A stretch of 64,000 bases of DNA from positions 759 through 64,758 of the forward strand of contig CAZYBP010000001.1 in assembly GCA_964645555.1 (NCBI GenBank), read 5' to 3'. Positions 10,968 through 38,151 of this stretch are shown in pieces. The stretch's first letter is position 1, and every line of letters starts with the position of its first letter. The position numbers and the translations under genes are program-made. Source of the DNA: an uncultured Gammaproteobacteria bacterium. GTDB lineage: Bacteria; Patescibacteriota; Microgenomatia; Daviesbacterales; UBA10151. The notes under the pieces are model-generated. The model saw nothing but the letters and a program-made list of their open reading frames with translations. It was not told the DNA's origin and searched no databases.

Positions 10968-13900
10968 TTTAGTTGCTTCCGGCGAAATTGTTTACCTAAG
11001 AGTAAAAGTGACAGCAGAAAAAATACAGTTAAACTTATCTTCAAACCTGTATACAAATTATCTTGCGGGGTAAATTTTATCCTGAAAGATAATTCACCGG
11101 TTCTATTAATTAACCATCCATTAGCATATCCATTTGTCAAGTAATGATCTTTTTCAGCAACTTCTCCCATTTTTGGAGAATCCATAATCACTTTCCAGCC
11201 ATTATGGAAGCTTTCATTTAATACTATAAACATATCCTGATTGGGATTATTCACTTGCACTTGGTACTCCACCGGGGAAATTTTTTTAAATTCGGCAGTA
11301 ACAGGACTAAAAGTATTGCCAACTGAGCTACTCAACACGACACTACCATTAAAAGATTCAGCTATACTCAAATCCCTAATTTCCACCTTAGATTGATTAT
11401 CGGTAAATATTTTTATCGTTGGCTTATCTGTGCTTCTGTCTAACCGTACTGAAGCCGTATTATTGGTACTTATTGAGAGGGTTAGATATTTCCAATTAAA
11501 ATCATGTGCATTATCACTAATTTCTTTTCTGAGTTTTGGCACTTTAACACCCGTCAGCTTATCAGAATCCTGCCAAAATTGTATCTGCGGGGGGGGACCT
11601 TGAAGCACTTTATAGTTAAAACTCAAGATATACGTTTTATCAGGATTATAGTCCGAAATTGTGTATTCAGTAATTCCCTCTTTGTTGCTATCAACCTTAT
11701 GAAGCACATTCAAATTGTTTTGTATAGATAAACCTATTTCATGTACCCCCGGAGTTAATTCAATCTCACCTAAAGAAAACCAGTTCTTGCTGTCTTCTTG
11801 CTTTAAAACCATATATTTAGCCGTCCCATCAAGATAAACTTTTATAGTCTTGCCGTCTTCTAGACCGAAATGTTTACTATCAACAGATGTTAAAATAAAC
11901 TCCATCCGTGTATGATTACGGATAAAAAACTGGTATACGTTGATCTTGCTGGAATTTTCTACTTCAGTATCAACAAAAGTATAGTAAACCTCAAGACCGA
12001 TATCTTTTAGAAAAGCTGATATCTTTTCAATATCTTCCTTAATTTTCAAATTAATCTCGTTATTGCCGGCGGCATCTATAAAGCTTGTCAGTTTCTTTTT
12101 TTCTTCATCAAGCACTACCTTTATAATGGACTTAGTTTGCGTATCCAAATCTTCCTCAGATAATTTTTTCAACATCCCAGTTGTTTCATCAAGATAAGCG
12201 GAATATTGTGCAATTGACCGATTAAATTCCTGCTCTTTTTTTGCTTGTCTTAAACGATCTGCTTCAATTATTCTCTTTTGAGTTAGAACAAGCATTTTCA
12301 TAGACTTCTCATAAAAAGGCGTAAAATAAAATTCAATTTTTTCCTTCAGAATTACTGCAGGATAAAATATGGAGTCAGGCAAATATTTTATAAATGGTCG
12401 GGGTATTATTATATCAGGAGGGGTTGAAAAAGATTCCAAAGGAATGACCCTCTGCGGATAAAGAATTTCTTTGTAAAGGATACTTTCATCAATATGCTGG
12501 GTACTAAACTCTTGTAAGAAAATGTTGTTTGTATTGATAACATTACCCATAATATAATCCGTTTGGCTTATATCACGGGGGAGGCCACTACCTGATACCA
12601 ATGATATTCCTCCTGCAATATTGACAGCTGACTTGGTTTCGTCTAAAAATTTGTAAACCTTAAGATGTCCTGTTTCTTTAACAATTGAAAGATCTGAAGA
12701 TGTGTTTAAAAAATGCTCTATCTTCTTTGGATTATCAATTCTTCTTTGGGAATAATCTAAATCTTTATTCAAAACAATATATTTTATTCCCAAATTTTTT
12801 AGAATTGCTTTTTGGGCAATATAGTTTTCTTTATGAAAAGTTCTGGCAATTTCCTCAATAAGCCGGTCAACAAAAGGGATATATAACTGCCTGGAGATGG
12901 ATGCTCCGGGAAATAGATGTGAAGCCAGTTCTACTCCGTTATAAGTATATGTCCAGTTATACGTTGCTGCATCCCCTTCTGAAATTGGCAAAATTAATAT
13001 TTTGCCTGGATTTATTGTAAGCTCCTTCGACAAAAAGGCTGAAACTTCTTTGTAATCTGCAGGCACTGTAAAAAAGGGTGGATATTTATCACTCCCAAAT
13101 AACCTATCTCCAAACATTGGCCAAACATAGACAATCATACCCATTACCAAAATAACCGTAATAATTTTTGGAATTAATGCCTTGAATGGCACATTTAGCT
13201 TTATTTTGAATATCCATAAGTTCCGTACTCCCAATGTTATGAGTATGGATGCTGGCAAAAACACCAGCAAGCCAGTTTTTTCGAAAGGATTTCTGATTGC
13301 ACCTAATAAATAAATATTCGCATAAATCCAGGCTGTGATTTTTCCAAAAGGCTCTGCCGCCCCTTTTGCCATAAATACCCCAAAAAGAAAAAGCGTTATC
13401 ATATACCATACTTTTCCTTCTCTTTTGATAAAACTTAACAGAATAAATAGTACTGAAGTCCAGCTTAAAAGCTGGAAGTACGGACTTAAATATACTTCAC
13501 CCCAATCCTTTTCAAAAAACATTATAAAAGGATTAATCCCTCTGATAACATAATTTATTGTGGATTGTGAGCTTAGAGTAAGAAGGGTATCAACATTCCC
13601 TTTATTTGAAAAAGCCGATACTAAATTTGTAGTACTAAACAAAGGATACAACCACCAAAAATTTGTTAATATCCACAAAACAAAAAGTGTAACAGTTAAA
13701 AAAATATTTCTTGTTATTTTTTTAACTTGTCTGCGGTTTTCAAACACGGAGAAAATAAATATAACCGCCACCGCCAGCCAAATTGCTATAACTGGAGCAA
13801 CTGAGGAGAACATATAACTTGCCAGAAATGATATAACAAGGAACAAGAAAATAAATATCATTCTTCCTTTCTCCAAAAGCTTGATATAAAAGAATACAAA

Positions 13901-14386
13901 ATAAGGCAACGATGCCGAGAGGATAAAATTGGCATAAATAAATCTATGCCAAACAATCATCATAAAAGGATTGAATATATAAAATAACCCAGCCAAAAGC
14001 TGCAATCTACCACCATAAGGAATAATTTGCTTACAAAGCAGGCTTACCCCCAAGCCTTGTAAGTAAATTATGATAAAAAATATGACCTTTTGGATCCCGA
14101 TTGCACCAAAACCTAAACGTTCTAAAATACTCATAAAGTAGTAGAAAGGTATTGATGCGGCAACTGTGGGAATTGAAGTACCGGGGCCTAATGCTTCCCA
14201 CCACAACCATCTAATCTGTTCCAATATTTTTCCCGGGGCGTAAGTCGGAATACCTACCTCAGTTCCTCCAAACAATATATTCTTAGTAAACCAAAGTTGC
14301 ACTAATAAAAAAGCAATCAATAAGAAAAAAACTCTTGGATCCAGTAAAATATCTTTTACTTTTTCCAGAGTTTTCATTTTTTCCAT
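10964..14386 (-). CDS. Family-A large polytopic membrane protein (GT-C-like candidate), 1140 aa, with central coiled-coil insert
   Basis: Carries RNPFEKTG, and the C-terminal YANGWLINRTGE motif followed by a TM anchor. Roughly 100 aa of charged helical sequence (EADRLRQAKKEQEF...) sits between the TM domain and the beta-rich ectodomain. Confidence 0.7.
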   Translation of the reverse strand: MEKMKTLEKVKDILLDPRVFFLLIAFLLVQLWFTKNILFGGTEVGIPTYAPGKILEQIRWLWWEALGPGTSIPTVAASIPFYYFMSILERLGFGAIGIQKVIFFIIIYLQGLGVSLLCKQIIPYGGRLQLLAGLFYIFNPFMMIVWHRFIYANFILSASLPYFVFFYIKLLEKGRMIFIFLFLVISFLASYMFSSVAPVIAIWLAVAVIFIFSVFENRRQVKKITRNIFLTVTLFVLWILTNFWWLYPLFSTTNLVSAFSNKGNVDTLLTLSSQSTINYVIRGINPFIMFFEKDWGEVYLSPYFQLLSWTSVLFILLSFIKREGKVWYMITLFLFGVFMAKGAAEPFGKITAWIYANIYLLGAIRNPFEKTGLLVFLPASILITLGVRNLWIFKIKLNVPFKALIPKIITVILVMGMIVYVWPMFGDRLFGSDKYPPFFTVPADYKEVSAFLSKELTINPGKILILPISEGDAATYNWTYTYNGVELASHLFPGASISRQLYIPFVDRLIEEIARTFHKENYIAQKAILKNLGIKYIVLNKDLDYSQRRIDNPKKIEHFLNTSSDLSIVKETGHLKVYKFLDETKSAVNIAGGISLVSGSGLPRDISQTDYIMGNVINTNNIFLQEFSTQHIDESILYKEILYPQRVIPLESFSTPPDIIIPRPFIKYLPDSIFYPAVILKEKIEFYFTPFYEKSMKMLVLTQKRIIEADRLRQAKKEQEFNRSIAQYSAYLDETTGMLKKLSEEDLDTQTKSIIKVVLDEEKKKLTSFIDAAGNNEINLKIKEDIEKISAFLKDIGLEVYYTFVDTEVENSSKINVYQFFIRNHTRMEFILTSVDSKHFGLEDGKTIKVYLDGTAKYMVLKQEDSKNWFSLGEIELTPGVHEIGLSIQNNLNVLHKVDSNKEGITEYTISDYNPDKTYILSFNYKVLQGPPPQIQFWQDSDKLTGVKVPKLRKEISDNAHDFNWKYLTLSISTNNTASVRLDRSTDKPTIKIFTDNQSKVEIRDLSIAESFNGSVVLSSSVGNTFSPVTAEFKKISPVEYQVQVNNPNQDMFIVLNESFHNGWKVIMDSPKMGEVAEKDHYLTNGYANGWLINRTGELSFRIKFTPQDNLYTGLKISLTVFFLLSLLLLGKQFRRKQLN

Positions 14387-17214: not shown

Positions 17215-17232
17215 ATAAGGTTGATTATACTT

Positions 17233-19038
17233 ATGAAGCTATCGTTAAAACAACTGCTCTGGATTGTAATTGGCATTCCTCTGGTTTCTTATCTACTGTT
17301 AAAACCTACGTTCAATTTGTCTTTATTTGGTGATGATTGGGAGCAGCTTTATTTTATGTGGCTGGAATTTGAATCCAGACATTCCTTTAGCTGGTTTGAC
17401 ATTAAATCTTATCTAGGACCATATAACTTTTCTTATTCTTATTTGGGGATAATAAATAATTTCTTTGGTCTAAATTCCGCAGCTTATTTTTATGCTTCAT
17501 TTCTTTTTAGGGTTCTATCAATAATCTCGGTATATTTTCTGGTTAATTTTCTGACCAAAGAAAAATTAGCCCCCTTTTTAGCTTCGCTAATATTTATTTT
17601 CTCTGCCGCAGGCTTAGAAACCACCAACTGGGTATTCAATATGAATACCTATATGGCCATATTTTTGTTTAATCTTAGCGTAATATTTTATTTAAAATTC
17701 CGATTAAAGCCAAAAATAAATCTGCCGGACCTCGCTTGGTTTATCCTTCTTTTTGCAGCTGCACTCTTTGTAGCCTCAACCAGGATGCATGGAGCAGCCC
17801 CTTTCATAATATTGATCGATTTGATCCTAATATTCCTGTTTGAAAAGAACAAACCAAGCTTAATTTCATATTCGAGATTAATCATTCCCCCGCTTGTACT
17901 TTTGACTCTGATATATTACGGAGCCTTCGGTCATATTGGAGCCGGCGGGTTTACAGACCGTCTCAAGCTGGGAATGGAAACTGCATTAGCTCTTTTGTCA
18001 AAAGGACAATACTTATTTTTATTTTTTCTTCCGGGTATTATCGGCCATATCAGTTTACCGGATTCTTTAACCCTAAACTATAAAACATCTACCTATTTAA
18101 TTGTTGCTATCTTTTCTTTATCTGCTTTATTGTCACTTATTATATGGTTCATTGTAAGCATTGTTAAATTTGAAAAAGCGCAAAAAGATTTAGGCTTGCA
18201 AAGTTTCTTTGGAGTTACATTTATTTGGGCAATTCTGGTATATATAGTCTCTGTATCAAACACTATTATCCCTATCGGCCAATTTTTCTCAATTTTTGTT
18301 GGGGGCGAAATTCTTTTTCTAATTTTTTGGTTATTTTTCTTTCTTAAACATAAGTTCCCCCTGGTTTCTTTTACCTGCATTTTTTCACTACTATATCTTT
18401 TGGCTTTTACCTTAATTTATTGGTTATTCAGTCCGGCGGTTTTTTCTGAAACTACCAGCAGGTATTTAACAATGGGCGGAGTGGGATTTGCTATTTTCTT
18501 TGGTGTATTTTTAAGTTTCCTATTTAAAACACTTCCCTCTGGATTGCAGGTATTACCTATTACATTTTTGTCAATCTGGCTTTTTGTTAATTTTTGGGCC
18601 GGCAGGGAATATTGGATGTTTATGGAAACAAACCGGAACTCCCAATTGGCAAAATCTATTTGGAATTCCTTAACAGCAGATATTAAAGATCTTGATATAG
18701 AAAACCCGACGGTATTTTTTCTGACAGCCGACAACCCCTCTCTGCTCTATTGGAACGTTGACTTTGGTTTTCCCTCCCATATGGGTTTGACTTATAAAAT
18801 ACCTGATTTAAATAACACTCCTGTTTCCACATCGGATTATTCAACATTACTTGAATACGCAAAAGACGGCTCACCCCTTAAAAAAATCCACGGCAGGCCG
18901 GTTAAAGAAATTCCCTTAGATCATATTTATGCATATCATTTAACTCAGGATAAATTTGTTTCTCAAACTGATTTAGTCAGAAAGAAGCTCAAGGAAGATT
19001 TGGACAAAATTACTTCACAACCAAAAGCCGGTTATTAA
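17233..19038 (+). CDS. Family-B polytopic membrane protein (GT-C-fold candidate)
   Basis: LFGDDWEQLYFMW motif after TM1 and more than 12 TM helices. The ORF track starts at TTG 17221; the ATG at 17233 (MKLSLKQLL) is more plausible. The 3' end overlaps the convergent carbamoyltransferase by 29 nt. Confidence 0.6.
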   Translation: MKLSLKQLLWIVIGIPLVSYLLLKPTFNLSLFGDDWEQLYFMWLEFESRHSFSWFDIKSYLGPYNFSYSYLGIINNFFGLNSAAYFYASFLFRVLSIISVYFLVNFLTKEKLAPFLASLIFIFSAAGLETTNWVFNMNTYMAIFLFNLSVIFYLKFRLKPKINLPDLAWFILLFAAALFVASTRMHGAAPFIILIDLILIFLFEKNKPSLISYSRLIIPPLVLLTLIYYGAFGHIGAGGFTDRLKLGMETALALLSKGQYLFLFFLPGIIGHISLPDSLTLNYKTSTYLIVAIFSLSALLSLIIWFIVSIVKFEKAQKDLGLQSFFGVTFIWAILVYIVSVSNTIIPIGQFFSIFVGGEILFLIFWLFFFLKHKFPLVSFTCIFSLLYLLAFTLIYWLFSPAVFSETTSRYLTMGGVGFAIFFGVFLSFLFKTLPSGLQVLPITFLSIWLFVNFWAGREYWMFMETNRNSQLAKSIWNSLTADIKDLDIENPTVFFLTADNPSLLYWNVDFGFPSHMGLTYKIPDLNNTPVSTSDYSTLLEYAKDGSPLKKIHGRPVKEIPLDHIYAYHLTQDKFVSQTDLVRKKLKEDLDKITSQPKAGY

Positions 19039-20786: not shown

Positions 20787-22541
20787 ATGTCCAAAGGTTT
20801 GATTCAAAGTTTACTTCTTTGCTCCATTATAATAGTTATCAGTCTCTTTACACTTTATCCTTCCTTTAAACTTGCTTTGTTTGGAGACGATTGGCAGCAA
20901 ATCTTTCATTATTTTCTTTATCTTGGGCCAAAGAGCAGCGTTTTCGATCATTTAACTTATTTTGTAGGGGGCTATGGGGCTTTTGGAGTTATTACAGGAA
21001 TATCTTACCTGGCTTTTGGCCATGATTATAAAATGTATTATATATTTTCATATATATATAAGTTACTTTCTGCCTTTGCAATTTTTCCCCTTGCTTTTTA
21101 CTTAACCCGTTCAAAACTTGCAGCCTTTTATGCTTCACTATTTTTATCTGTCACCATCATCGGGCTTGAGAGTACTAATTGGGTAGTCAATTCCCCCGCT
21201 TACCTGGCTGTTGCCAACCTATCGTTATTTCTGTATTTTTTTCTAAAGTCCAGGGAAAATTTAAAACCACTCTATTTTATTGGGGCGGCAATATTTTTTT
21301 ACCTTGCCCATATTTTTGCCCCCGTCAGAATGACCGGTCTGCTGCCGTTTACAATAATTTTGGAGATATTTCTATACATTAAATCTCTCAATATTAAATT
21401 ATCGTTTATACGCTTGGTCATTCTATTTGTTGTATTTGCAATCATTACTGTTACGGGAGCATCTGCAGGCAGAACTGATACATTAGCCGGACAAGCATCA
21501 AAAACACTATTTTCCGGGTTTAGCCAAATTGCTGCTGCATTAGACAAAGGCCGCACAGACTTTTTATTTTATCCGGTCATGACTGTTGGCCGTATTGTTG
21601 TACCGGATACCACAGCTATTAAAATATTTCCCATGCTGATTTATCTGATTGTATTTATGGCAGTTTTTTATGCAAATGCCAACAAAAGTAAAAAAGTAAT
21701 TGCCGGTATAGCAGTGGGGATAGCCGTTTGGTCACTAATCAGTATGCTGATTTATGAATCCAATAAACTCACGTTATCAGCCCGCGATGCTTTATCCCTG
21801 GCTATTGGAGGATATTTTTTAACAACTGCCATTATATTATTGTTTTTTTTAAAAAAGCATTTGCTTTTTTACTCTGTATTTATAGCCAGCTTTTGGTCCG
21901 TATTTTCATTTATATTCCCTTGGATTAGAGCACCGGAGACGCTGAACCCGACTGAACATAGATACTTAGTTGCTTCATCGGTTGGTGTTGCAATTTTCTT
22001 TGCCAGTATTATCGGGCTGGGTAAGCAGTTAAAAAACCGTGTTTATCTTTTTTTGGTAGTAATACCGTTTTTATTAATAAATATTTTGGCCACCCGGAGT
22101 TTTCTTACCGACGCTGTCCAAAATAGCCATGGCAGTGAGGCAATAAATAAAATTTGGCCGCAATTTCCCCGTATTGCTGAAATTGGTAAAACGGAAAAAC
22201 CATTAATGTTCTTCTTCACCTCTTCTCCTGAAAAAGAAAAATTAAAACATCATTCTCTGACATTCGGTTTTCCTTTCAGAATGGCCTTTATCTATAATAT
22301 CGACAATTACTGGAAAATGCCTATTGCTACCAACAGCTGGGAAGATATCGTCTCGGCAGTTTCGGACGGACAATCTTTATTTATGAACAATTTCCCCAAA
22401 GATCCTATCCCTGTTGAAAATATTTATGCATTCTACCTTACTTCTGATAACAATTTATTAAATATAACAGAAGCGACAAGAGAAAAATTAAAGGATTTTC
22501 TTAAACAAAACCCAGAGAGTAATAATCAGACCGGAAATTAG
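20787..22541 (+). CDS. Family-B polytopic membrane protein (GT-C-fold candidate)
   Basis: LFGDDWQQIFHYFLYLGP motif, many TM helices. 3' end overlaps the convergent family-A gene by 54 nt. Confidence 0.6.
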   Translation: MSKGLIQSLLLCSIIIVISLFTLYPSFKLALFGDDWQQIFHYFLYLGPKSSVFDHLTYFVGGYGAFGVITGISYLAFGHDYKMYYIFSYIYKLLSAFAIFPLAFYLTRSKLAAFYASLFLSVTIIGLESTNWVVNSPAYLAVANLSLFLYFFLKSRENLKPLYFIGAAIFFYLAHIFAPVRMTGLLPFTIILEIFLYIKSLNIKLSFIRLVILFVVFAIITVTGASAGRTDTLAGQASKTLFSGFSQIAAALDKGRTDFLFYPVMTVGRIVVPDTTAIKIFPMLIYLIVFMAVFYANANKSKKVIAGIAVGIAVWSLISMLIYESNKLTLSARDALSLAIGGYFLTTAIILLFFLKKHLLFYSVFIASFWSVFSFIFPWIRAPETLNPTEHRYLVASSVGVAIFFASIIGLGKQLKNRVYLFLVVIPFLLINILATRSFLTDAVQNSHGSEAINKIWPQFPRIAEIGKTEKPLMFFFTSSPEKEKLKHHSLTFGFPFRMAFIYNIDNYWKMPIATNSWEDIVSAVSDGQSLFMNNFPKDPIPVENIYAFYLTSDNNLLNITEATREKLKDFLKQNPESNNQTGN

Positions 22542-25316
22542 TGCAAATTGCGATATTAAACTATCTTTGTCTAAATCATTTTGCAGACTATATTCCAAAT
22601 TCAAGTCAAAATCTCCTAGTCTGTCGATTAACCAACCGTTAGCAAAAGAGTTGGTCAGGAAATGTTTCTCAACTTTAGTCCCGTCCGGATAACTCAATTG
22701 CCAGCCACTGTTAAAAATAGAGGAGAAAACAACCACAAACGGATTTAAGGAATTTTCAATACGGATGTTGTATCTTGACGGGCTGATTTTGTCATAAGAA
22801 AGATTAGGTGTTTTATTAATTCTATCTTCTAATTTATTGATTAAAACTAAATCCGGTAGCATTAGTTCTCTTACGTTCATATTTTTAACCTTTAAGTTGT
22901 CTAAGTCAGGCCAAAAGTATATATTTAGCGCACTGGCTGTTGAGCGTGCTTCAAACAAATCATTAAACGACTCAAAACGATCTAAAGTGGTAGTTGTTAA
23001 ATCTTTCATATGATACGGACGAATCTTACCTTTTTCTTTTTGATCATTATCAAAAGAAATAACTAACTTTTTTTCTTGTAGTGTCGAATAATCAAAGGAA
23101 ACCAAATATTTTGAGAAAGGATTGATATTTAAGACAGTAAAACTGTTTTTATCATCAGATAAGGTTGTAAGATTACCTGAATACGAAATATTTATTATTA
23201 CTGTGTGTAATCCTTCTGTTAAGTTGAGTTCGCCATAAGACCACCTGCCGTCTTCTCTTAAAACCGGATTTCCTTGTAGCCTGACACCATCAACTAAAAT
23301 ATCTCCAGGTTCCGATAACTTATCCGAAATTAACTCATATTTGCCGCTATTTTTAATATCAAATTTGTAGTAACCGGGTTTGCGCTCCGGATTTTTCAAA
23401 TCATCAGGATGGATAACCCTTAAGTTAACCAGGTCGTCAAGATAGGATATATTTGAAATAGCAGTTCCGGCTGAAGAAGCCTCAGAAAAAGTAAAGTCTT
23501 TTAATTGAACCGTTGGCGATACATCCATTAAATTACCTGTTACATACAGGCTCTTGTCGGTCCAAAATGGGTTTTCCCAAAATTCAAGTTTGCCGAAAGA
23601 TAAGGTTTTTACCAATTCTCCTTTCTTACTTTTGTCCATGGCGATTTTTTGTATTGTTTGAGGATCCCTCATTTTTCTCTCGTAAATATCTACATCGGAT
23701 CTGATTAGTAGATATTTAGCGTTTAAAACATTCATAACCTCATAAAATTTGGGCTTACTGACAAATAACTCTTCCAGTTGATCAGCAACTTTGTCAAAAT
23801 ATAAAATAGTGGTAGAAGACATAATATGCGGAGTATCGAATAGCCACATTGATGTTTCTATTCCTTGGTAGCCTTTTTCCCAATTATAGGTTACCCCTTG
23901 TCCGCTGAAAGGAAAACCGATAAATCTAAAATTATTACCCTGGAACTTGAGCCAATTGTTGGCCTGCTCATAATACTGCGGCACTTTTACCTTATACCCT
24001 ACCGAATAATTGTCTGTCGGCGGGAAAAAACCGGTAAAAACAAGGCCTGACCAAAAGGGATAGCCGTATAAAGCAACTATAATGAATAAAGTGGCTGTAT
24101 AAACTGCTAAATGTAGCTTCTTTTGAAATTTTGACAATAAACCTTCAAGCCCCGCAGCCAATAAGGGTACTGCAGCAAGTAAGGTTATAAAACCAAATTT
24201 TTCAAATGGATTTCTAAAAAATTGCAGAGGAGAAATATTAATAAATAAAAATTGAAATAATTCTCCAAAGGGGGGATTATTTCCTTTGGCAAAGTATAGG
24301 CTTAGAAAAAACAATACGGCCAAAGCTAAAACATTAATATTTTTTCGGGCTTGAAATATAAAAATCAAGATAACTGCGGAAACTAAAAATTCTATTACTA
24401 CCGCTGCCGGCATGGAAAATAACTTCGGCCATTCAATTTGCGGAGTGGTGAAGAATGGCCCATGAAATAATCTAAAAAGGTATGTTAAATCCCCTAATGT
24501 TTTACTTGAGGCGGTCAGCGTCGATAGGCTTACATCGAATTGGAAAAAGGAAGATAATTCTTCAGAATATTTACCTATAAAAAGACTCCTTACAACCTGA
24601 CCAATCCACCATAAATTGACTAAAGAAAAATAAATTAAATTTATAGCAATAAAGCTTAGAGAAAATATTCTTTCCTTGGTTGTCTTAACTGTGATAAATT
24701 TAAATAAGGTAAAGTAAGTAAAAATAAACCATAAAATTATATTAAAGACAGGGTTTGATAATCCTAAAGAAAAAACAGCACAAGTTATCCCCACTACGGA
24801 AACATAATAAAAATTCTGTTTCTGTAAACCTTTGATATAAAAAGCGGAAACCAGAGGCAGAAGTGCCCAAAAAGCTATGTAATTATATAGAAATCGATTC
24901 CAAATATTAACTAAAGAGATAGAATTAAACCAATAAAATATAACTGCTACTACCAAATACTTCCTGCCAATGTGGGGAAAAAATTCCCGGGTAAATAAAG
25001 TAATTCCAACTCCGGATACTACAAGAAAAAACCAAAAAAGTCCGGCTTCAATTATATAATTGGCTACGCCAATTTTCTCAAGTAAAGAAAGCGCAAAAAA
25101 AGTAGGGGAGTATGCAGTCACAATACCGTTGGCAAATCCCAATCCGGAATTTGTGTCGGACCAGGCGCCCTTAACCTGACTATGAAATCTGGATAAATTA
25201 TAAAAGCTAATCTGGCTTTCGGCAGTACCTAATAATAAACCATCTTTAAACCAAGTAAATACCAAAATTGAACTGGCAATGGCTAAAACAGCTAAAAGTA
25301 GAAGGATGCTCCGCAT
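22488..25316 (-). CDS. Family-A large polytopic membrane protein (GT-C-like candidate), 942 aa
   Basis: Carries RNPFEKFGF, and the C-terminal FANGWLIDRLGDF motif with a TM anchor. Serves as the intact reference paralog. Confidence 0.7.
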   Translation of the reverse strand: MRSILLLLAVLAIASSILVFTWFKDGLLLGTAESQISFYNLSRFHSQVKGAWSDTNSGLGFANGIVTAYSPTFFALSLLEKIGVANYIIEAGLFWFFLVVSGVGITLFTREFFPHIGRKYLVVAVIFYWFNSISLVNIWNRFLYNYIAFWALLPLVSAFYIKGLQKQNFYYVSVVGITCAVFSLGLSNPVFNIILWFIFTYFTLFKFITVKTTKERIFSLSFIAINLIYFSLVNLWWIGQVVRSLFIGKYSEELSSFFQFDVSLSTLTASSKTLGDLTYLFRLFHGPFFTTPQIEWPKLFSMPAAVVIEFLVSAVILIFIFQARKNINVLALAVLFFLSLYFAKGNNPPFGELFQFLFINISPLQFFRNPFEKFGFITLLAAVPLLAAGLEGLLSKFQKKLHLAVYTATLFIIVALYGYPFWSGLVFTGFFPPTDNYSVGYKVKVPQYYEQANNWLKFQGNNFRFIGFPFSGQGVTYNWEKGYQGIETSMWLFDTPHIMSSTTILYFDKVADQLEELFVSKPKFYEVMNVLNAKYLLIRSDVDIYERKMRDPQTIQKIAMDKSKKGELVKTLSFGKLEFWENPFWTDKSLYVTGNLMDVSPTVQLKDFTFSEASSAGTAISNISYLDDLVNLRVIHPDDLKNPERKPGYYKFDIKNSGKYELISDKLSEPGDILVDGVRLQGNPVLREDGRWSYGELNLTEGLHTVIINISYSGNLTTLSDDKNSFTVLNINPFSKYLVSFDYSTLQEKKLVISFDNDQKEKGKIRPYHMKDLTTTTLDRFESFNDLFEARSTASALNIYFWPDLDNLKVKNMNVRELMLPDLVLINKLEDRINKTPNLSYDKISPSRYNIRIENSLNPFVVVFSSIFNSGWQLSYPDGTKVEKHFLTNSFANGWLIDRLGDFDLNLEYSLQNDLDKDSLISQFALISGLIITLWVLFKKIL

Positions 25317-26959: not shown

Positions 26960-27808
26960 ATGAATAATCAAAAACTTAAGTTTTTATACACTGATATTAA
27001 AGATTCGTACCTGGAATTATTGAAAGACACTTTAACTCATATAATTTATGGTAATTATGAGGTAGGTGCAACGCTCTCATCCCGTTTCCTGATCGAGAAA
27101 ATAATATCAAAGATATTGGGTCTAGTACATTTAAAATTAGTATTTAATAAACCTTTTAATCTCAAAGACAGAGAATATGGAAATGACTGGCCGCTAAGCG
27201 CTCACACAATGATTGGAAAAAGACGTCTAAATAATATTCAGTTCTGCATTGAGAATATCTTAAAGGAAAAAATCCCAGGAGATTTGATTGAAGCGGGCGT
27301 GTGGAGAGGAGGAGCCAGCATTTTTATGAAAGGAGTTTTAAAAGCATGCGGAGATAACAAACGGTGTGTTTGGTTAGCGGACTCGTTCCGGGGATTACCG
27401 CCTCCGGATATTAAAATGTACCCCCAGGATAAGGGAGATATTTTTTATCAAGTTGGTTACTTAGCTGTACCGGTTGAGGAGGTAAAAAATAATTTCAAAG
27501 CATACAACCTATTGGATGATAGGGTAAAATTTTTGATTGGATGGTTTAAAGATACATTGCCAAAAGCGCCTATAGGCAAACTTGCCCTTATCAGATGTGA
27601 TGGCGATATGTACGAATCAACTATGGATATATTAGTAAATTTATATCACAAACTTTCTACTGGCGGTTATGTAATTATTGATGACTATTATTATATTCCT
27701 GCATGCAAACAAGCAGTCGATGATTTTAGGAAAAAAAACAATATAAAAGACAAAATATTTGATATTACAGATATCAAAGGGGGAATATATTGGAAAAAAT
27801 TACAATGA
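26960..27808 (+). CDS. Macrocin-O-methyltransferase (TylF/MycF) family sugar O-methyltransferase
   Basis: GDLIEAGVWRGGASIF...WLADSFRGLP...CDGDMYEST...GGYVIIDDY reproduces the conserved blocks of TylF-family MTs. Confidence 0.8.
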   Translation: MNNQKLKFLYTDIKDSYLELLKDTLTHIIYGNYEVGATLSSRFLIEKIISKILGLVHLKLVFNKPFNLKDREYGNDWPLSAHTMIGKRRLNNIQFCIENILKEKIPGDLIEAGVWRGGASIFMKGVLKACGDNKRCVWLADSFRGLPPPDIKMYPQDKGDIFYQVGYLAVPVEEVKNNFKAYNLLDDRVKFLIGWFKDTLPKAPIGKLALIRCDGDMYESTMDILVNLYHKLSTGGYVIIDDYYYIPACKQAVDDFRKKNNIKDKIFDITDIKGGIYWKKLQ

Positions 27809-27827
27809 AAAGCCCAACATTAGAAAA

Positions 27828-29930
27828 CTATTCCCATGGCCAAATTTTAAATAATATATCAATTGTATAATCTCCCTTATTGTCTATCAACCAACCATTG
27901 GCAAACCCATTAACTAAAAAATGTTTGTCTACTACCTGGTTATCGATCCGTGCTTGCCAAAAACCATTGTATGTATCATTTAAAACTAATACAAAAGGTG
28001 TCCTTGCCCCTACTTGGACCTTGAAACGGGTGGGAGATTTCTTTTCAAACACCAAATCAACTGAAGAATCTGAATTTTGGCTAAGCTCGCCTGAAGAGCC
28101 GATAGACTGGTAATTTTCTGTATCGACAAAAGCAGCCTCAGTTGTATCAAACCCGCCGCTGCTTATACTATTTAATGCCTGATCAATGGAATCAAATTCT
28201 GCCAAAGATGTCACTGCGAAGATTTCCGGCTTAACAATGCTTTTTTCTAAAGTGTAAACAGTTAAAGGCCCGAACTCTGCATCCTTAGTAATTTCCCGCC
28301 ACTGGTCTATTTTGACTGTATTTAAATCCAACTGAGGATAAATCATATCACGGTGCAAAATAATATGATCAACTCCCAAAAGTCCTAATGTCCTTGGTAA
28401 GAAATTCTGGGAGAGGTATTTGGGGATTAATATATAGTAGTTGTTAAAAGTAGGTACTGTTGAGCGGGAGACGTTTTGTGAGTCAAACAGATTTTCAGCA
28501 GGGTCCTGTCCAATATAACCCCATGAATATTTTAATAATTCTGCCTGTACTGAAACAGGCAGATGAAAAATTCTTTGGCTTGAATTTGAGTTCAAATAAT
28601 CATTAGCCTGGGTATAATACGGAGGAATTGTCAGCCTGTCTTTAGAAGGGAATATTCTACCATTCCACATCGGATAAACTAAAATGCCATATAATAAGAC
28701 TATCAAAAAAACTCTTAATACCCGGCCGCTTTTTCCGGTAAATTTCTTAAAAATGTAATTCAAACCAAGTGCAAAAAAGACTGAGTAAGGCAAAAGGAAA
28801 ACTAATCAAAATTTCTCATAGGGGTTTCTCAAAGCTGCGCTGAATGGGAATGTTGAAAAGATCACAGAAAAAAATTGGTATCCCAAAGGAAAGTTTGAAC
28901 CCTTACTGACAAACCAGCCAATCAGTAATAAACTAATTAAATATTTAAAATTTTTTTGGGTCTTTTCCTTTACAATACCCAGTATAACAATAGCCAAAAC
29001 AACTAAACTTATTAAGTAACTAAAGAAATTATTATAGAACTCAAACCATCCGGTACTTAAAGAGCTTCCCTTTTCAAAAAAAGCTTTCTGGCGCAGCATT
29101 AAAATATCGGTAGTTCCAAAGTATTTACTTACACCTATTAGTGACTCACGGTGTATTCTCCATTCCTCTGAAAACTTAGCTAAGGTAGCTCCCTGTGCAG
29201 TTGACTTGTGAATTAAAGGATAAATCCACCAGGTGTTGACTAAAACTGTCACAATAACCGTGAATATACACTTTAATAAAAGTTTTAATAAATAAGTTTT
29301 ATTTTTTCTATTTTGAATAAATTTAATAAGGGCATAAATACCTGCCACTGTTAGGTAAACAAACAAATATGCAGGATGGGAAAAAGCATGCGAGAATACT
29401 GTCATGCTTGCAGCAATAAAAATTAGCCAATAAATTTTACCCTCGTCCAACCATTTTATCCAAAGAAAGATAAACAGTGGCAGGTAAGCCCAGGGAAACA
29501 TGCCTTGATAAATGTTCCTTTTCCAAACCTGGGTCATGGAGTATAGATTAAGTAAGTAAAAAAAACTTCCTAGTATAGATATTAGCTTACTTTGTCCAAA
29601 ACCTTTGTAAAGCAAAAGGTACATAAAGACTACACCTGAAAACATGATTATCCAATATGAAAGTGCCTGAATCAAAAAGGGCGCAAATCCGGCCTTTTGA
29701 AACAAGCTCAAAAATGTCAGATAGGGAAATCTTACAAATTCAAAAATATTTACGCTACCTGTACCAGAAGGATACCAACTGCTAGAAAAATATTTTGCAG
29801 TTCTTTCAAAGTTAACAAAAGATAAATTCTCCTCACTATTGTTTGAAACAAAAGTTTTTGTCGAGAACCAGGAAAATATGATTATGAAAGTCACAAAAAA
29901 TGCAAGCAGTAAGAATGATCTGGTCTTCAT
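27828..29930 (-). pseudogene. Family-A membrane protein paralog (shortened) interrupted by in-frame TGA at a conserved Gly codon
   Basis: ORFs 28806..29930 and 27828..28793 are in the same frame. Sequence reads ...RNPYEKF-TGA-LVFLLPYS..., where intact paralogs have RNPFEK(F/I/T)-G-(F/L).... The C-terminal part keeps the FANGWLIDNKGDY motif but lacks the final TM anchor. Confidence 0.55.
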
Positions 29931-31178
29931 TTAAAATTGCAATATTGTACGGGTTGATAAAACTCTTTGTATTTCCTCTTGGCTTCTTTTAATCTCCCTC
30001 AAAATAATCTTGTGCGGTACTAAAACCACCAAAAGGTCTTTACCCAAACAAAGATTCAGTAGAGTCTTCGGATATTTTAAAGCGGAAACTAACGGATCAA
30101 AATGAGAAACAGTAATACCCCTCTTTTTTAATATTTTAACTACCTTAATTGCAGGACTCTCTCGGGTATCAGTAGAATCAACTTTATATGATGCTCCTAA
30201 AACTAGTACTTTAGGCTTTTTAATACCTCTTAGCTTGCTCGCTATGCGTTCTGCAATGTTAGCCGGCACTTGATCGTTAATTTTCCTTGAGGTTGAAATT
30301 AATTTTGAGTTTATCTGATCCACCTCATAAATGAACCAGGGATCTATAGGGATACAGTGTCCTCCGACGCCAATACCAGGATTTAAAATATTGACCCGTG
30401 GATGTTTGTTGGCCAAAGCAATTACTTTTCGGGCTTCTACACCTAAATTTTTCGCGGTTTGGGCAAACTCATTTGCCAAAGCAATATTTACATCTCTAAA
30501 AGAGTTTTCCATCAATTTGCAAAGTTCCGCACTTACTATATCTGTTTTGTATATGTTCCCTTTGACAAAGGACTTGTAAACTTTCTCAGCAAGCTGGCAG
30601 GATTTCTCATCTACACCTCCGATAATCCTGTCATTATGGACAATTTCATAGTAGATATTTCCCGGTAAAATCCGTTCCGGGCAATGCGCTAGGGAAATAT
30701 CTTTACCGGCAATAAGTCCGGTTTTTTCCAGAATTGGTATTGCTAAATTGTTACAAGTATTAGGAGGAATTGTGGATTCAATAATCACCAAATCACCTTT
30801 TTTTAAAAATGGTATGGTTGCCTCTAAGGCTTTTTTCACAAAAGAAAGATCTGCCTTTTTTTTGTTATGAAGCAGCGGGGTTGGAACTGTTATGATAAAA
30901 GTATCTGCTTGAGTCGGAGTCTGCCTTAAAAACAAATTTTTCTTTACTTTAGGGTTTTTTAATAAACGCTGCAGTTGGCTTTCCTGAACTTGAGGCGGCA
31001 ATAAACCATTTTTTAAACCGTCAATTACCTTCCTATTAATATCTACCCCAATAACTTTGTAGCCCGCTTTGGCAAGAAGCAAGGCTGCAGGCAAACCTAC
31101 CACCCCTAAACCCAAAACTACAACATTACTTTTTTCCATATACCTCTCTTTGCCATTCAATTGTTTTCGGTATTCCAA
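29931..31178 (-). CDS. Nucleotide-sugar dehydrogenase (UDP-N-acetyl-D-mannosamine dehydrogenase WecC-like / Ugd family)
   Basis: N-terminal Rossmann motif VVVLGLGVVGLPAALLLA, catalytic GGHCIPIDP, about 415 aa. The start may be the internal Met (MEKSNVVV...). Confidence 0.7.
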   Translation of the reverse strand: MEYRKQLNGKERYMEKSNVVVLGLGVVGLPAALLLAKAGYKVIGVDINRKVIDGLKNGLLPPQVQESQLQRLLKNPKVKKNLFLRQTPTQADTFIITVPTPLLHNKKKADLSFVKKALEATIPFLKKGDLVIIESTIPPNTCNNLAIPILEKTGLIAGKDISLAHCPERILPGNIYYEIVHNDRIIGGVDEKSCQLAEKVYKSFVKGNIYKTDIVSAELCKLMENSFRDVNIALANEFAQTAKNLGVEARKVIALANKHPRVNILNPGIGVGGHCIPIDPWFIYEVDQINSKLISTSRKINDQVPANIAERIASKLRGIKKPKVLVLGASYKVDSTDTRESPAIKVVKILKKRGITVSHFDPLVSALKYPKTLLNLCLGKDLLVVLVPHKIILREIKRSQEEIQRVLSTRTILQF

Positions 31179-34344: not shown

Positions 34345-34379
34345 AAATGGTATTATACATTAACAATAGAGGATATAAT

Positions 34380-36716
34380 ATGCTCTCCATGATACCTTTA
34401 CTGTATCTAATTTTATTAACAGTTACTCTCATCGGCACTGTATTATCCCGAAGCCTCATTGATGAAAAAAGACTTTTTATTAATATTCCTGTAGGGATGA
34501 TTTTAGGGACTAGCCTCTATATTTTTTTACTGAATATATTTTCAAAGTTTTTTCCGGGTCAGATGGGCATCATTTTTTCCACAATCAGTCTATTGCTGAT
34601 AGCAATATTTACTTCCTTTTTCCACTATAAAAAAATTATTAATGTTAAATGGCCAAAGCTTCTAAATATATTACTTCTTCTGGTTATAACAATTCCAGTT
34701 ATTTATTTTGCAAGACTCAAGATGACTTCAGTTTTTCCCGTAGCAGATTCTGACATGCAGTGGGCTTATGCTGCCAGTTTCACAAGAGGCAATTATCCGC
34801 TAAAAGTTCCCTGGCAACCTGATTTGACTCCAAATTATCATCTTGGGGCATATTTTTTTGAAGGAGCATTATTGACTCTTACCGGCTTACCTTTAATAAC
34901 TATACACTCTGTGTTAAATGTTTACTTTTTAATAGCGGGAGTTTTATTTGCAATTTTTCTTTTTTGGGAAAAAAACCGATTTCAAAACATTTGGCTTATT
35001 TTGGCTTCCATCGTAACTTATATATCCTTTGGAGTATTAATATTAATATTACCAAGTCAAAATTTTTTTCAGGTTTTAGATATCCACTCTCTCTTTAATG
35101 CAATTACACAACTTCCCTATTTGTGGGCAAAAGGAACTGCAGGGGCAGCTTTAGTTGACCTCAATTCATTGAGTTATCTGCCTGCCCGTTCGCTTGGTAT
35201 TGGGTTGGCTTTTTTAGCTTATTATTTTACTTTCATACCCTTTAGAAACTCAAAAATAAAGATTTTGTCCTTCGTTTTACTTTTTTCTGTTACTGCCTTG
35301 GTTGAGGAATCGGTATTTCTACCGTTATTTTTAACCTTAGTGTCAATATACCTGCTATCCCTTTTACAATTCCTCCCCTCCCTTAATGATTTAAAAAAAC
35401 ATAGCAAAGGTTTATTAATAACAATTTCTGCCATAGCCGTTACCGTCTTACTACAAGGCGGATTTGTCTCGGATTTATTAACTCAAAAAGGCTCGGCTTA
35501 TAATATCCTCCTGCCTCTTTCTAAGTCTTTTTTGGACAGATTCCCTGCAAGTTTTTCTATAATGCCTTCAATCTCAACACCATATAATTTACTGATCCTC
35601 TCCCCATTTATTCTTTCAGTGATAGTTTTGGTTTATTCCATTTTCAAAAAAAGAAGAAACTTGGCCGTTTTCTGCCTTTTTTCTTTAGTTTCTCTTTTCT
35701 CCTATTTGACAATTGAATATAAATATTCTCCTACAAATAATATCAGGTTTTATAATTTTGCCTCCATTAGTTCAGGCCTAGCCTTCGTTTATTTTCTTTA
35801 TGATTTGATGAAGGATAGGTCTTTGTCAAAGAATCTTGTTGTGTTTTCCGTTTTAAGCTTTCTAATGCTTCCCTCATTTATACCGGAGATTATAAACCAG
35901 TCAAAACAACTTCAAACAGCCCGGATGAATGATAACCGCTCCAAAATATTAATATCTTCTCATCCTTTAACCCCTTTTGAAAAAATAAGTGATTGGGCAA
36001 ATAAAAATTTACCCCCGGATAGTAGGCTGGTAAGTATTGATACTGATATACCGTCTCCAAAACGGTCTGTGCAATTTCAATATAAAGGCCTATACACCAC
36101 TCTTGCCCCTCAATATATTCATACTACCCGTCCCGAACCAGGTACGGAGTATTTTGACCTCATATTGACCTTAAACCCTTCAATCCTCAAGCAAACAAAA
36201 ACGCAATATGTGTATATAGAATCAGAATCCGATGCATACAAACAACTGCCTAAATTTAGGAAAGATGAGCTGGAAGACGAAAACTATTTTGAAAAGTTAC
36301 AATCAGTGGATTACCAGGATAATCAAAAAAAGGAGATCTTTTTCAGATTATACAGGGTCCTCCCTCAATACTTAGATCCTCAAAGTGGCGTAAAAGAGAT
36401 TAATGAGGGAACATTAAGGACTTTAAACATTTTAATTCCTAACTTGTCTACTGTTTATATCTCAGATTATGGCGACCCGCCGCATTTTTCTTTTTGGTAT
36501 AGAATGGCCGTAGTCTTACAGTTAAAGGACAAACAAATCAGAAGAAATATCTCACAAACCGATTACCAGGCTATTGAGACTAACCTTATTTATACAACCG
36601 GAAATTCAAACCAAAGGTATGATTATTATATTTCAGCTCCCAATCAGAAGCCCTTCTTACCGGCAACACTTATCTGGTCAAATATTTATGCCTCGGCTTG
36701 GAAAATTGATGGTTGA
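34380..36716 (+). CDS. Family-C polytopic membrane protein with C-terminal soluble domain (GT-C-like candidate)
   Basis: About 12 TM helices. Conserved loop ADSDMQWAYAASFTRGN...WQPDLTPNYHLGAYFFEGAL is shared with 53137..55452. Start chosen at ATG 34380, preceded by AGAGGA. Confidence 0.6.
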   Translation: MLSMIPLLYLILLTVTLIGTVLSRSLIDEKRLFINIPVGMILGTSLYIFLLNIFSKFFPGQMGIIFSTISLLLIAIFTSFFHYKKIINVKWPKLLNILLLLVITIPVIYFARLKMTSVFPVADSDMQWAYAASFTRGNYPLKVPWQPDLTPNYHLGAYFFEGALLTLTGLPLITIHSVLNVYFLIAGVLFAIFLFWEKNRFQNIWLILASIVTYISFGVLILILPSQNFFQVLDIHSLFNAITQLPYLWAKGTAGAALVDLNSLSYLPARSLGIGLAFLAYYFTFIPFRNSKIKILSFVLLFSVTALVEESVFLPLFLTLVSIYLLSLLQFLPSLNDLKKHSKGLLITISAIAVTVLLQGGFVSDLLTQKGSAYNILLPLSKSFLDRFPASFSIMPSISTPYNLLILSPFILSVIVLVYSIFKKRRNLAVFCLFSLVSLFSYLTIEYKYSPTNNIRFYNFASISSGLAFVYFLYDLMKDRSLSKNLVVFSVLSFLMLPSFIPEIINQSKQLQTARMNDNRSKILISSHPLTPFEKISDWANKNLPPDSRLVSIDTDIPSPKRSVQFQYKGLYTTLAPQYIHTTRPEPGTEYFDLILTLNPSILKQTKTQYVYIESESDAYKQLPKFRKDELEDENYFEKLQSVDYQDNQKKEIFFRLYRVLPQYLDPQSGVKEINEGTLRTLNILIPNLSTVYISDYGDPPHFSFWYRMAVVLQLKDKQIRRNISQTDYQAIETNLIYTTGNSNQRYDYYISAPNQKPFLPATLIWSNIYASAWKIDG

Positions 36717-36732
36717 TGATAGTATATATAAA

Positions 36733-38151
36733 ATGAAAACTTATCAATTTGATGTAGTTATAGTTGGATCAGGACCTGCAGGAGTCCATGCTGCATACCC
36801 TTTAATTAAGGCGGGATTAAAAGTTGCTATTATTGACGGTGGTCTGGATAGCAAAAAGCAAGATAAGAAACTTAGCGATTTTTTAGATGTTCATTTCAGA
36901 GAAACAAGCAACGCGTACGATCTGATCAAACAAAGCAGTTATGTATTCAATAAAACCTACCAACTCCTAAAAATAAACAGTAATATCGAAATCATTCAAA
37001 GCTTAGCAAAAGGAGGATTGTCGCAACAATGGCATGGTATCAGTGATTTTTTCTCAAATAAGGAATTAGAAAGAATTGGACTACCATCAAACGAGATACA
37101 AGCTGAATATAAAGAGATAGCTAAACTTATAAAACTTAAATTGGAAGGAAATCTGGACTACCATGCTAAGGCACTTTTAAAAACTGCAGAGAGTAAGCCT
37201 AATCTTAAAGAGAAACTATACCGGGTCCCGCTCGCCTTTCCTTACCGAACCAGTTCTGATATTGAATATTTCAAAAAATTTAAAAACTTTACATATATCC
37301 CCAATCAATTAGTGTTTACAGTAAAGGATATTAAAACTTGTGTGAAAATTGAAAGCCGATCAATTAATAAACAATCTACACTACAAACTAAAGCAGGATA
37401 TGTAATTTTGGCAGCCGGCTCAATTAACACTACCAGAATATTACTAAGAAGCTTAAACCTATTTAACTACAAAACCACATTTTTAACTAAAGCTCATTAT
37501 ATTACCGCCTGTATGCATCCAAGGACTTTCTTACTCCGATCATCTGAAAAATACTTAAAAAAATCAGGATTAGGGCAACTTGTCATCGCTGATAAAAAAA
37601 TAGGTAAAGGAGTCGGTGCTTTTTTTATACAACTATATAGATTTAATCCGCTGGTGATACATAAAGTATTAAAGCATATTCCTTTACCCAAAATAATGGC
37701 ATTACCTCTAATGTCAATTTTTGCTCCCTTTTTAATGATAGCTGACATAAGATTTGCAGCTTCTGAATCGAAAAAGAGATTCTGTAGATTATTAAAAGAT
37801 GCCGATAAAAATGATGTTTTAGAAATTTCATTCCAAGAATCTTTAAAAGAAATGAAAAATCATGAAAGTGAGTTTGTCAAAATTTCCCGTCAGTTAAATT
37901 CCCTCGGGTTATTCCCTCTTAAGACGGTTAAGGACTACACCACCTCCCATTATGCCGGAGGGGTACCTTATATGAAAAATCCGGGTAAAATATCAGTTAA
38001 TTTAAACGGCAGGCTACACCAGGCAAACAGAATTTATGTTGCTGACTCTGCAAGTTGGCGGGCACTACCGGCTAAAGCACCAACCTTGACAATAATGGCC
38101 AACGCTGCCAGAATTGGTAAAAAAGTTTTAGCAAAATTAGCGTTACACTGA
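36733..38151 (+). CDS. FAD-dependent oxidoreductase (GMC-like)
   Basis: FDVVIVGSGPAGV Rossmann FAD motif at the N-terminus. C-terminal YVADSASWRALPAKAPTLTIMANAARIG resembles the GMC C-terminal signature. Confidence 0.5.
   Translation: MKTYQFDVVIVGSGPAGVHAAYPLIKAGLKVAIIDGGLDSKKQDKKLSDFLDVHFRETSNAYDLIKQSSYVFNKTYQLLKINSNIEIIQSLAKGGLSQQWHGISDFFSNKELERIGLPSNEIQAEYKEIAKLIKLKLEGNLDYHAKALLKTAESKPNLKEKLYRVPLAFPYRTSSDIEYFKKFKNFTYIPNQLVFTVKDIKTCVKIESRSINKQSTLQTKAGYVILAAGSINTTRILLRSLNLFNYKTTFLTKAHYITACMHPRTFLLRSSEKYLKKSGLGQLVIADKKIGKGVGAFFIQLYRFNPLVIHKVLKHIPLPKIMALPLMSIFAPFLMIADIRFAASESKKRFCRLLKDADKNDVLEISFQESLKEMKNHESEFVKISRQLNSLGLFPLKTVKDYTTSHYAGGVPYMKNPGKISVNLNGRLHQANRIYVADSASWRALPAKAPTLTIMANAARIGKKVLAKLALH

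What the first reader, a model, noticed from the sequence alone, without database searches (positions are those of the whole stretch)
28791..28811. In-frame TGA exactly at an invariant glycine codon of a family-A paralog
The minus-strand ORFs 28806..29930 and 27828..28793 are in one frame. The sequence reads R-N-P-Y-E-K-F-[TGA]-L-V-F-L-L-P-Y-S, whereas every intact paralog has RNPFEK(F/I/T)-G-(F/L)(L/I).... So a single GGA->TGA change sits at the most conserved residue of the family, with no downstream decay. The possibilities are a very recent nonsense mutation, an on/off switch for one glycan variant, a sequencing or assembly error, or UGA read-through or recoding at this site. UGA is the leakiest stop, and UGA=Gly is the reassignment used by some candidate-phylum lineages. 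I do not think this genome uses it globally, because many TGA codons here end genes in tidy ATGA overlaps, but a single site-specific Gly insertion would restore the conserved motif.
Basis: seen in the sequence. Interest (0 to 1): 0.7.

Follow-up and report, generated by a model that had tools for sequence, protein, structure and literature searches.

The report
Private nonsense SNP in a glycosyltransferase gene
One base change (GGA to TGA), seen only in this assembly, cuts a 700-codon membrane glycosyltransferase gene of a groundwater Daviesbacteria genome in two, while two other assemblies of the same population read an ordinary glycine codon there, so it is a very recent knockout or a consensus error, not recoding.

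Summary
A minus-strand TGA at window 28808..28806 is codon 375 of a 700-codon GT-C/AftD-like gene (27828..29930). It replaces a glycine found in 85 of 87 aligned relatives (motif RNPYEKFG).

Comparison with other assemblies explains it. Two independent public assemblies of the same population read GGA and carry an intact 700-aa gene:
- NCBI MAG JACPKN010000096.1
- a Logan contig from SRR12113431

The Logan contig differs from the window at this one base in 3,483 bp. The intact NCBI allele differs from the window gene only at this base. That is why there is no downstream decay.

UGA is an ordinary stop here:
- 18 of 51 ORFs end in TGA, five of them in ATGA overlaps.
- Coding density under table 11 is 97%.
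- One neighbouring gene has TAA in the window and TGA in the sibling MAG.

Nothing at the site suggests recoding or switching. There is no downstream hairpin or SECIS, no repeat tract, and no usable restart codon. None of 43 related genomes has TGA at this position; all four GGN codons occur there.

Verdict: a private G-to-T nonsense substitution. It is either a very recent strain-level knockout of one of several paralogs or an assembly error, and only read mapping can tell which. Ordinary, low interest.

The parts
28806..28808 (-). In-frame TGA, codon 375. It is GGA (Gly) in the sibling assemblies L001 and L002. On the + strand the window has A at 28808 and the others have C.
27828..29930 (-). 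The whole disrupted gene: 700 codons plus a TAG stop, GT-C / AftD-like (PF11847, DUF3367) membrane glycosyltransferase. The intact allele is MBI2600302.1 (P0084).
28806..29930 (-). N-terminal ORF of 374 aa ending at the TGA. It contains most of the transmembrane GT-C core, including the invariant E33-E34 loop.
27828..28805 (-). Orphaned C-terminal 325 codons. By alignment to the P0001 model these comprise a transmembrane helix, two further helical segments and a strand-rich C-terminal domain. There is no credible start codon or ribosome-binding site of its own.
22488..25316 (-). Intact paralog (942 aa, PF11847) with RNPFEKFG.
10964..14386 (-). Intact paralog (1140 aa, PF11847 plus DUF5667) with RNPFEKTG.
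3679..6378 (-). Intact paralog (899 aa, PF11847 hit below the gathering score) with RDPFEKIG.
6603..9272 (-). Distant fifth family member (889 aa) without the Gly motif (FRDSTKFF).
19036..19038 (+). Stop codon of gene 17221..19038: TAA in the window, TGA in the sibling MAG. This shows that UGA terminates translation in this population.

Best explanation
A single G-to-T transversion (C-to-A on the + strand at 28808) converted the GGA glycine codon 375 of a GT-C/AftD-like glycosyltransferase gene into an ordinary UGA stop on this assembly's haplotype. I take it to be a real, very young nonsense allele segregating in a groundwater Candidatus Daviesbacteria population. Translation ends at codon 374. 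The product lacks a transmembrane helix, two further helical segments and the strand-rich C-terminal domain, so this one paralog is most likely inactivated. The loss would be tolerated because the same locus encodes three close paralogs and one distant one. Shown: the variant, its absence from sibling assemblies, the otherwise identical gene, and UGA acting as a stop. Inferred: that the T is present in cells rather than only in the consensus, and that the truncated protein is non-functional.
For: The intact allele exists in the same population. L001 (NCBI GCA_016187055.1, JACPKN010000096.1) calls a 700-aa gene. L002 (Logan assembly of SRR12113431) reads through the site. Both have GGA. L002 differs from the window at this base only in 3,483 bp, and within the 2,103-bp gene L001 differs only at this base, so no time has passed for decay. 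Real strain variation exists between these assemblies: 23 other SNPs, of which about 15 leave the amino acid unchanged. The 374-aa fragment is on record from an NCBI contig of 85,981 bp, so the TGA is in the deposited record. UGA is a normal stop: 18 of 51 ORFs end in TGA and are soon followed by further in-frame stops, there are five ATGA overlaps and 97% coding density under table 11, and there is a TAA/TGA stop polymorphism at 19037. The stop lies in the middle of a single PF11847 domain match, residues 68-567, 72 bits against a cut-off of 26. It sits at the start of a long helix in a confident model of a 68%-identical homolog, pLDDT 89.9. Paralogs are present in the window.
Against: No reads were available, so a consensus or sequencing error cannot be excluded. 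The TGA allele is seen in one assembly only. No Logan contig carrying a TGA-terminated 374-aa ORF, or any of three candidate C-terminal ORFs, is on record. Nonsense alleles are rare among real polymorphisms. G-to-T / C-to-A is also the signature of oxidative-damage artefacts in Illumina libraries (own knowledge).
Confidence: 0.5

Rival explanations
1. Assembly or sequencing artefact: the population has GGA, and the T in this contig is a consensus error. It could come from low coverage, a minor k-mer path chosen by the assembler, or 8-oxoG damage giving G-to-T.
For: Both other assemblies that cover the site read GGA. Across about 14 kb of Logan contigs from four runs this is the only difference from the window. 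The MAGs of this project are per-filter MEGAHIT assemblies, and the sibling MAG is labelled about 8x coverage. The change is an isolated transversion, whereas about 17 of the 23 other differences are transitions.
Against: Illumina consensus substitution errors are rare at normal depth. The rest of the 64-kb window shows no other broken gene. The TGA is in the deposited NCBI record. Neither point is decisive.
Confidence: 0.4
2. Site-specific UGA recoding or read-through (Gly, Trp, Cys or Sec inserted) that yields the full-length enzyme.
For: The stop sits exactly at an almost invariant Gly and the downstream half is intact. UGA=Gly exists in other Patescibacteria lineages such as Gracilibacteria and Absconditabacteria (own knowledge).
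Against: Sibling assemblies simply have GGA, so the TGA is derived and private. 43 of 43 related genomic loci use GGA, GGT, GGG or GGC and none uses TGA, though one of the two search patterns required G. All full-length protein homologs are single ORFs, with no fragments of about 374 or 325 aa. UGA terminates 17 other genes, and TAA and TGA interchange at 19037. The 70 nt downstream of the stop are less structured than shuffles (z = +1.6), and there is no SECIS or other Rfam match. There is no tRNA in the window. The base following the stop is U, which gives efficient termination in E. coli (own knowledge).
Confidence: 0.03
3. A reversible on/off (phase-variation) switch for one glycan variant.
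For: The gene is one of several paralogous surface-glycan transferases, a class that is often phase-variable (own knowledge). Both states occur in the population.
Against: The change is a base substitution, not a slippage or inversion event. There is no repeat tract in or near the site: the only tandem repeat lies at 27733-27757, outside the gene. The local run is only T4.
Confidence: 0.02
4. A functional split gene: the N-terminal 374 aa and a re-initiated C-terminal fragment assemble into an active enzyme.
For: Both halves are intact. A TTG lies five codons after the stop, at 28793.
Against: There is no Shine-Dalgarno-like sequence before any candidate restart; the first ATG is 46 codons downstream. 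The break is at the start of a helix within a single domain. No relative is split here.
Confidence: 0.03

Closest known systems
Nonsense-SNP pseudogene / strain-level loss-of-function allele in a metagenome-assembled genome
   Same: A single base substitution creates a premature standard stop. An intact allele is present in the same population. There is no further decay, and redundant paralogs are present.
   Different: Nothing distinguishes it. Whether it is real or a consensus error is unresolved.
Mycobacterial AftD, alpha-(1->3)-arabinofuranosyltransferase, GT-C fold (PDB 6W98; Pfam PF11847)
   Same: The intact allele matches PF11847 at 72 bits. A model of a 68%-identical homolog has AftD as its best structural match: E about 1e-13, TM-score 0.6 normalised to the query. 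OST STT3/PglB and AftA follow.
   Different: It is only about 700 aa against about 1,400, without AftD's extra carbohydrate-binding modules or bound acyl carrier protein. Identity in the structural alignment is about 13%, and there is no PDB match by sequence. Substrate and product are unknown.
Genetic code 25 (UGA=Gly) of Gracilibacteria and Absconditabacteria
   Same: A UGA sits where relatives have Gly, in a Patescibacteria genome.
   Different: It is one private site only. UGA is used as a terminator throughout the window, and sibling assemblies have GGA.

Membership tests
GT-C_AftD (Pfam PF11847 / DUF3367) glycosyltransferases | Profile HMM match above the gathering score | tested here: met
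   Intact allele P0084: 72.1 bits against a cut-off of 26, one stretch covering residues 68-567 and spanning the stop site. The C-terminal half alone scores 41.6 bits. The N-terminal half alone has no hit.
GT-C_AftD (Pfam PF11847 / DUF3367) glycosyltransferases | GT-C fold: a multi-helix membrane core followed by a soluble C-terminal domain | tested here: met
   AlphaFold model of homolog P0001 (68% identical), pLDDT 89.9, pTM 0.90. Best PDB matches are AftD 6WBY and 6W98 (E about 1e-13), then STT3, PglB and AftA. This was tested on the homolog, not on the window protein itself.
GT-C_AftD (Pfam PF11847 / DUF3367) glycosyltransferases | Arabinofuranosyltransferase activity with a polyprenyl-phosphate sugar donor | not testable with these tools
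   No biochemical data. Neighbouring genes (UDP-glucose dehydrogenase, epimerases, GT1, GT2, methyltransferases) indicate only a glycan-biosynthesis locus.
Genetic code 25 (UGA = Gly) | UGA is not used as a terminator and appears in frame at conserved Gly positions in many genes | tested here: not met
   18 of 51 ORFs end in TGA and are followed by more stops. Five ATGA overlaps and 97% coding density with table 11. TAA/TGA stop polymorphism. Only this one TGA has an open continuation in frame.
Genetic code 25 (UGA = Gly) | tRNA-Gly with a UCA anticodon and loss of release factor 2 | not testable with these tools
   No tRNA gene lies in the 64-kb window. The rest of the genome was not available.
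Selenocysteine recoding | SECIS hairpin just downstream of the UGA, with Cys or Sec at the homologous position | tested here: not met
   The 70 nt downstream fold at -3.2 kcal/mol, weaker than shuffles, z = +1.6. No Rfam SECIS match even at E <= 10. Homologs have Gly, not Cys.
Programmed stop-codon read-through | The stop codon is conserved at the site across relatives | tested here: not met
   0 of 43 related genomic loci have a stop there, with the caveat that one search pattern required G. All full-length homologs are uninterrupted. Sibling assemblies have GGA.
Phase-variable surface-glycan gene | A simple-sequence repeat or invertible element that causes reversible switching | tested here: not met
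   No tandem repeat within the gene. The change is a substitution next to a T3/T4 run.

The most novel reading that the evidence does not exclude
In the strain carrying the TGA allele, low-level natural UGA read-through (near-cognate Trp, Cys or Arg, or a suppressor tRNA elsewhere in the genome) still gives some full-length transferase. The allele would then be a hypomorph kept in the population as a dosage variant of one surface-glycan enzyme, rather than a null.
Probability: 0.03. Interest if true: 0.4.

Novelty: already known. Interest (0 to 1): 0.07.

Why it matters
It matters mainly as a negative result. An in-frame UGA at an invariant glycine in a Patescibacteria genome looks like a lead to code-25-type recoding. 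Here it comes down to a single private base difference from sibling assemblies that carry GGA. For annotation, 27828..29930 should be treated as one gene with an internal stop (a pseudogene, or a site to correct), not as two genes. If the allele is real, it is a small example of strain-level loss among redundant GT-C surface-glycan transferases in an episymbiotic CPR bacterium.

Tried and rejected
- Exact-pattern scans with N at the variable base found nothing in genome contigs or metagenome contigs. The window's own record and its sibling are evidently not searchable there.
- Look-ups of the 374-aa N-terminal ORF and of three candidate C-terminal ORFs (280, 321 and 292 aa) found no contig. 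No second assembly with the TGA allele could be found.
- The upstream UDP-glucose dehydrogenase gene led to one more Logan contig (L008, SRR12113383), but it stops 201 codons into the gene, before the site.
- Sequence searches against PDB found nothing relevant with either the single protein or the profile. The link to AftD needed a fold search.
- NCBIfam gave no hit.
- The Rfam scan at E <= 10 gave only three chance matches to eukaryotic or viral families.
- The supplementary tables of He et al. 2021 identified the sibling MAG but not which run or MAG the window comes from.
- Frameshifting was considered and dropped, because both ORFs are already in the same frame.

Full report
**The observation**

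The minus strand of the window reads AGA AAC CCC TAT GAG AAA TTT TGA TTA GTT TTC CTT TTG, which is R-N-P-Y-E-K-F-stop-L-V-F-L-L. The TGA is at 28808..28806. The two mechanical ORFs, 28806..29930 (374 aa) and 27828..28793, are in one frame. The stretch 27828..29930 translates as 700 codons with this one internal stop.

Three paralogs in the window carry Gly at the equivalent place:
- RNPFEKTG in 10964..14386
- RDPFEKIG in 3679..6378
- RNPFEKFG in 22488..25316

A search of the protein collection returned 83 relatives. The closest is 68% identical. Most of them are single ORFs of about 640-705 aa that cover 97-100% of the joined query. In an 88-sequence alignment the column under the stop is G in 85 of 87 sequences, and the two most distant have T or S (see also A1). 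One refinement: a fifth, distant family member in the window (6603..9272, hhalign probability 99%) has FRDSTKFF instead of the motif.

**What the gene is**

The intact form matches Pfam PF11847 (GT-C_AftD, formerly DUF3367). The match is one stretch, residues 68-567, at 72 bits against a gathering score of 26, so the stop lies in the middle of one domain.

An AlphaFold model of the 68%-identical homolog P0001 is confident (pLDDT 89.9, pTM 0.90). Its best solved-structure matches are mycobacterial AftD (6WBY and 6W98, E about 1e-13). Oligosaccharyltransferases STT3, PglB and AglB, and AftA, follow; all are GT-C enzymes.

In the model the conserved R-N-x-Y-E-K-F-G motif (R356..G363 in P0001) sits at the start of a long helix (358-384). 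Two more helical segments and a strand-rich C-terminal domain (about residues 440-676) follow it. Termination at codon 375 therefore removes those helices and the whole soluble domain.

The neighbourhood is a glycan-biosynthesis locus. It contains UDP-glucose dehydrogenase, UDP-GlcNAc 2-epimerase, NAD-dependent epimerases, GT1 and GT2 transferases, methyltransferases and a carbamoyltransferase.

**The decisive result: other assemblies of the same population**

Looking up the neighbouring methyltransferase protein found three public contigs.
- L001 is JACPKN010000096.1 of NCBI assembly GCA_016187055.1. A gene of 700 aa is called there, where the window has two ORFs.
- L002 is a Logan assembly contig of run SRR12113431. 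It carries a 419-aa partial product that reads through the site.
- L003 (SRR12113424) ends before the site.

At the DNA level both L001 and L002 read TCC on the + strand, which is GGA (Gly), where the window reads TCA, which is TGA.
- L002 is identical to the window over 3,483 bp except for this base.
- L001 differs at 20 of 12,473 positions, but inside the 2,103-bp gene only at this base.

This fully explains the lack of downstream decay: apart from one nucleotide, the disrupted allele is the intact allele.

Exact look-up shows that the intact protein is MBI2600302.1, 'DUF3367 domain-containing protein [Candidatus Daviesbacteria bacterium]'. The 374-aa fragment is on record from an NCBI contig of 85,981 bp, with no protein accession. 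So the TGA is in the deposited record from which the window was cut.

JACPKN is the MAG Genasci_Feb2018_S35_SO-1_Daviesbacteria_37_8, from agricultural groundwater at Modesto, California. Its name indicates about 8x coverage. It comes from He et al. 2021 (PMC7906910, Supplementary file 25). In that study each filter was assembled separately with MEGAHIT.

**Is UGA a stop in this organism?**

Yes.
- Of 51 long ORFs, 25 end in TAA, 18 in TGA and 8 in TAG. After every TGA other than the one at the site, further in-frame stops follow within 0-27 codons.
- Five TGA stops sit in ATGA start/stop overlaps and one in TTGA. ORFs called with table 11 cover 97% of the window.
- Between the window and L001, the stop codon of gene 17221..19038 is TAA in one and TGA in the other (position 19037). 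The two codons are interchangeable as terminators in this population.

**Recoding signals**

None was found.
- The 70 nt from the UGA onward fold at only -3.2 kcal/mol, weaker than 194 of 200 shuffles (z = +1.6).
- An Rfam scan of 27500..30200 at E <= 10 found no SECIS or other relevant family.
- The window has no tRNA gene.
- In 43 related loci from species-representative genomes the codon is GGA (15), GGT (15), GGG (10) or GGC (3), inside long open frames, and never TGA. Caveat: one of the two search patterns required G.
- No protein hit has the length expected of a gene split at this site.
- From my own knowledge, a U after UGA gives comparatively efficient termination in E. coli, and UGA=Gly is confined to Gracilibacteria and Absconditabacteria, not Microgenomates.

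**Switch or split gene?**

The change is a substitution beside a short T run. There is no tandem repeat in the gene, so there is no mechanism for reversible switching.

After the stop, the in-frame candidate restarts are TTG at 28793, 28763 and 28706 and ATG at 28670. None has a convincing ribosome-binding site; 28706 has a weak AAGAG 5 nt upstream. No relative is split here.

**Real mutation or artefact?**

This cannot be settled without reads.

For a real allele:
- The two MAGs show genuine strain variation: 23 other SNPs, most of which leave the amino acid unchanged.
- The rest of the window has no other broken gene.
- The genome has redundant paralogs that could buffer the loss.

For an artefact:
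- The TGA is seen in a single assembly.
- It is the only difference from about 14 kb of Logan contigs from four runs.
- It is an isolated G-to-T transversion, the oxidative-damage signature (own knowledge).
- Look-ups for TGA-type ORFs on other contigs found nothing.

I put a real, recent nonsense allele at about 0.5 and a consensus or sequencing error at about 0.4. Read-through or recoding, a switch, and a functional split gene share the remainder.

**Comparison with what is known, and verdict**

The gene is a member of the PF11847 GT-C family by profile score and by fold. Its substrate is unknown. It is about half the size of AftD and lacks AftD's accessory modules.

The feature itself is a premature UGA caused by one base change, with the wild-type codon present in sibling assemblies. 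That is an ordinary pseudogene or error pattern. It is not a new kind of recoding, and its interest is low.

Noticed in passing
window 19036..19038 (+): The stop codon of gene 17221..19038 is TAA in the window and TGA in the sibling MAG L001. This is a natural TAA/TGA stop polymorphism. The same base is a synonymous TTT/TTC change in the overlapping minus-strand carbamoyltransferase gene.
   Followed up: yes
window 21388..21434 and 22316..22352 (gene 20787..22541, +, 584 aa, no Pfam hit): There are two dense SNP patches between the window and L001, of 7 and 8 differences. Codon 519 is changed at all three positions (GAA against CCT, E to P). The rest of the 12.5 kb has only 5 differences. This looks like a recombination or strain-mosaic patch, or a locally variable surface protein.
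   Followed up: partly
window 3679..6378, 6603..9272, 10964..14386, 22488..25316, 27828..29930 (all -): Five GT-C/AftD-like membrane glycosyltransferase paralogs lie within 27 kb of one glycan-biosynthesis island. One of them (6603..9272) is recognisable only by profile-profile comparison. This is a notable expansion for a small CPR genome.
   Followed up: partly
window 34347..36716 (+, 789 aa) and 53137..55452 (+, 771 aa): Two further large proteins have no Pfam match and no detectable relation to the GT-C family profile (hhalign probability below 3%). Their function is unknown.
   Followed up: partly
window 30779..30818: The sibling NCBI MAG has a contig break here, between JACPKN010000096.1 and JACPKN010000001.1, inside the UDP-glucose dehydrogenase gene. 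The window is contiguous across it.
   Followed up: no
window 34347..36716 / 36574..38151 (+): The mechanical ORFs overlap by 143 nt. The public gene calls on L004 use different start sites (775 and 472 aa), so the overlap comes from the longest-ORF rule.
   Followed up: no
L009, L013, L014 and others: Many genome records that carry this typically Patescibacteria family are titled 'uncultured Gammaproteobacteria bacterium' (TPA binchicken/SRP co-assemblies). These are probably placeholder or wrong taxonomic labels.
   Followed up: no
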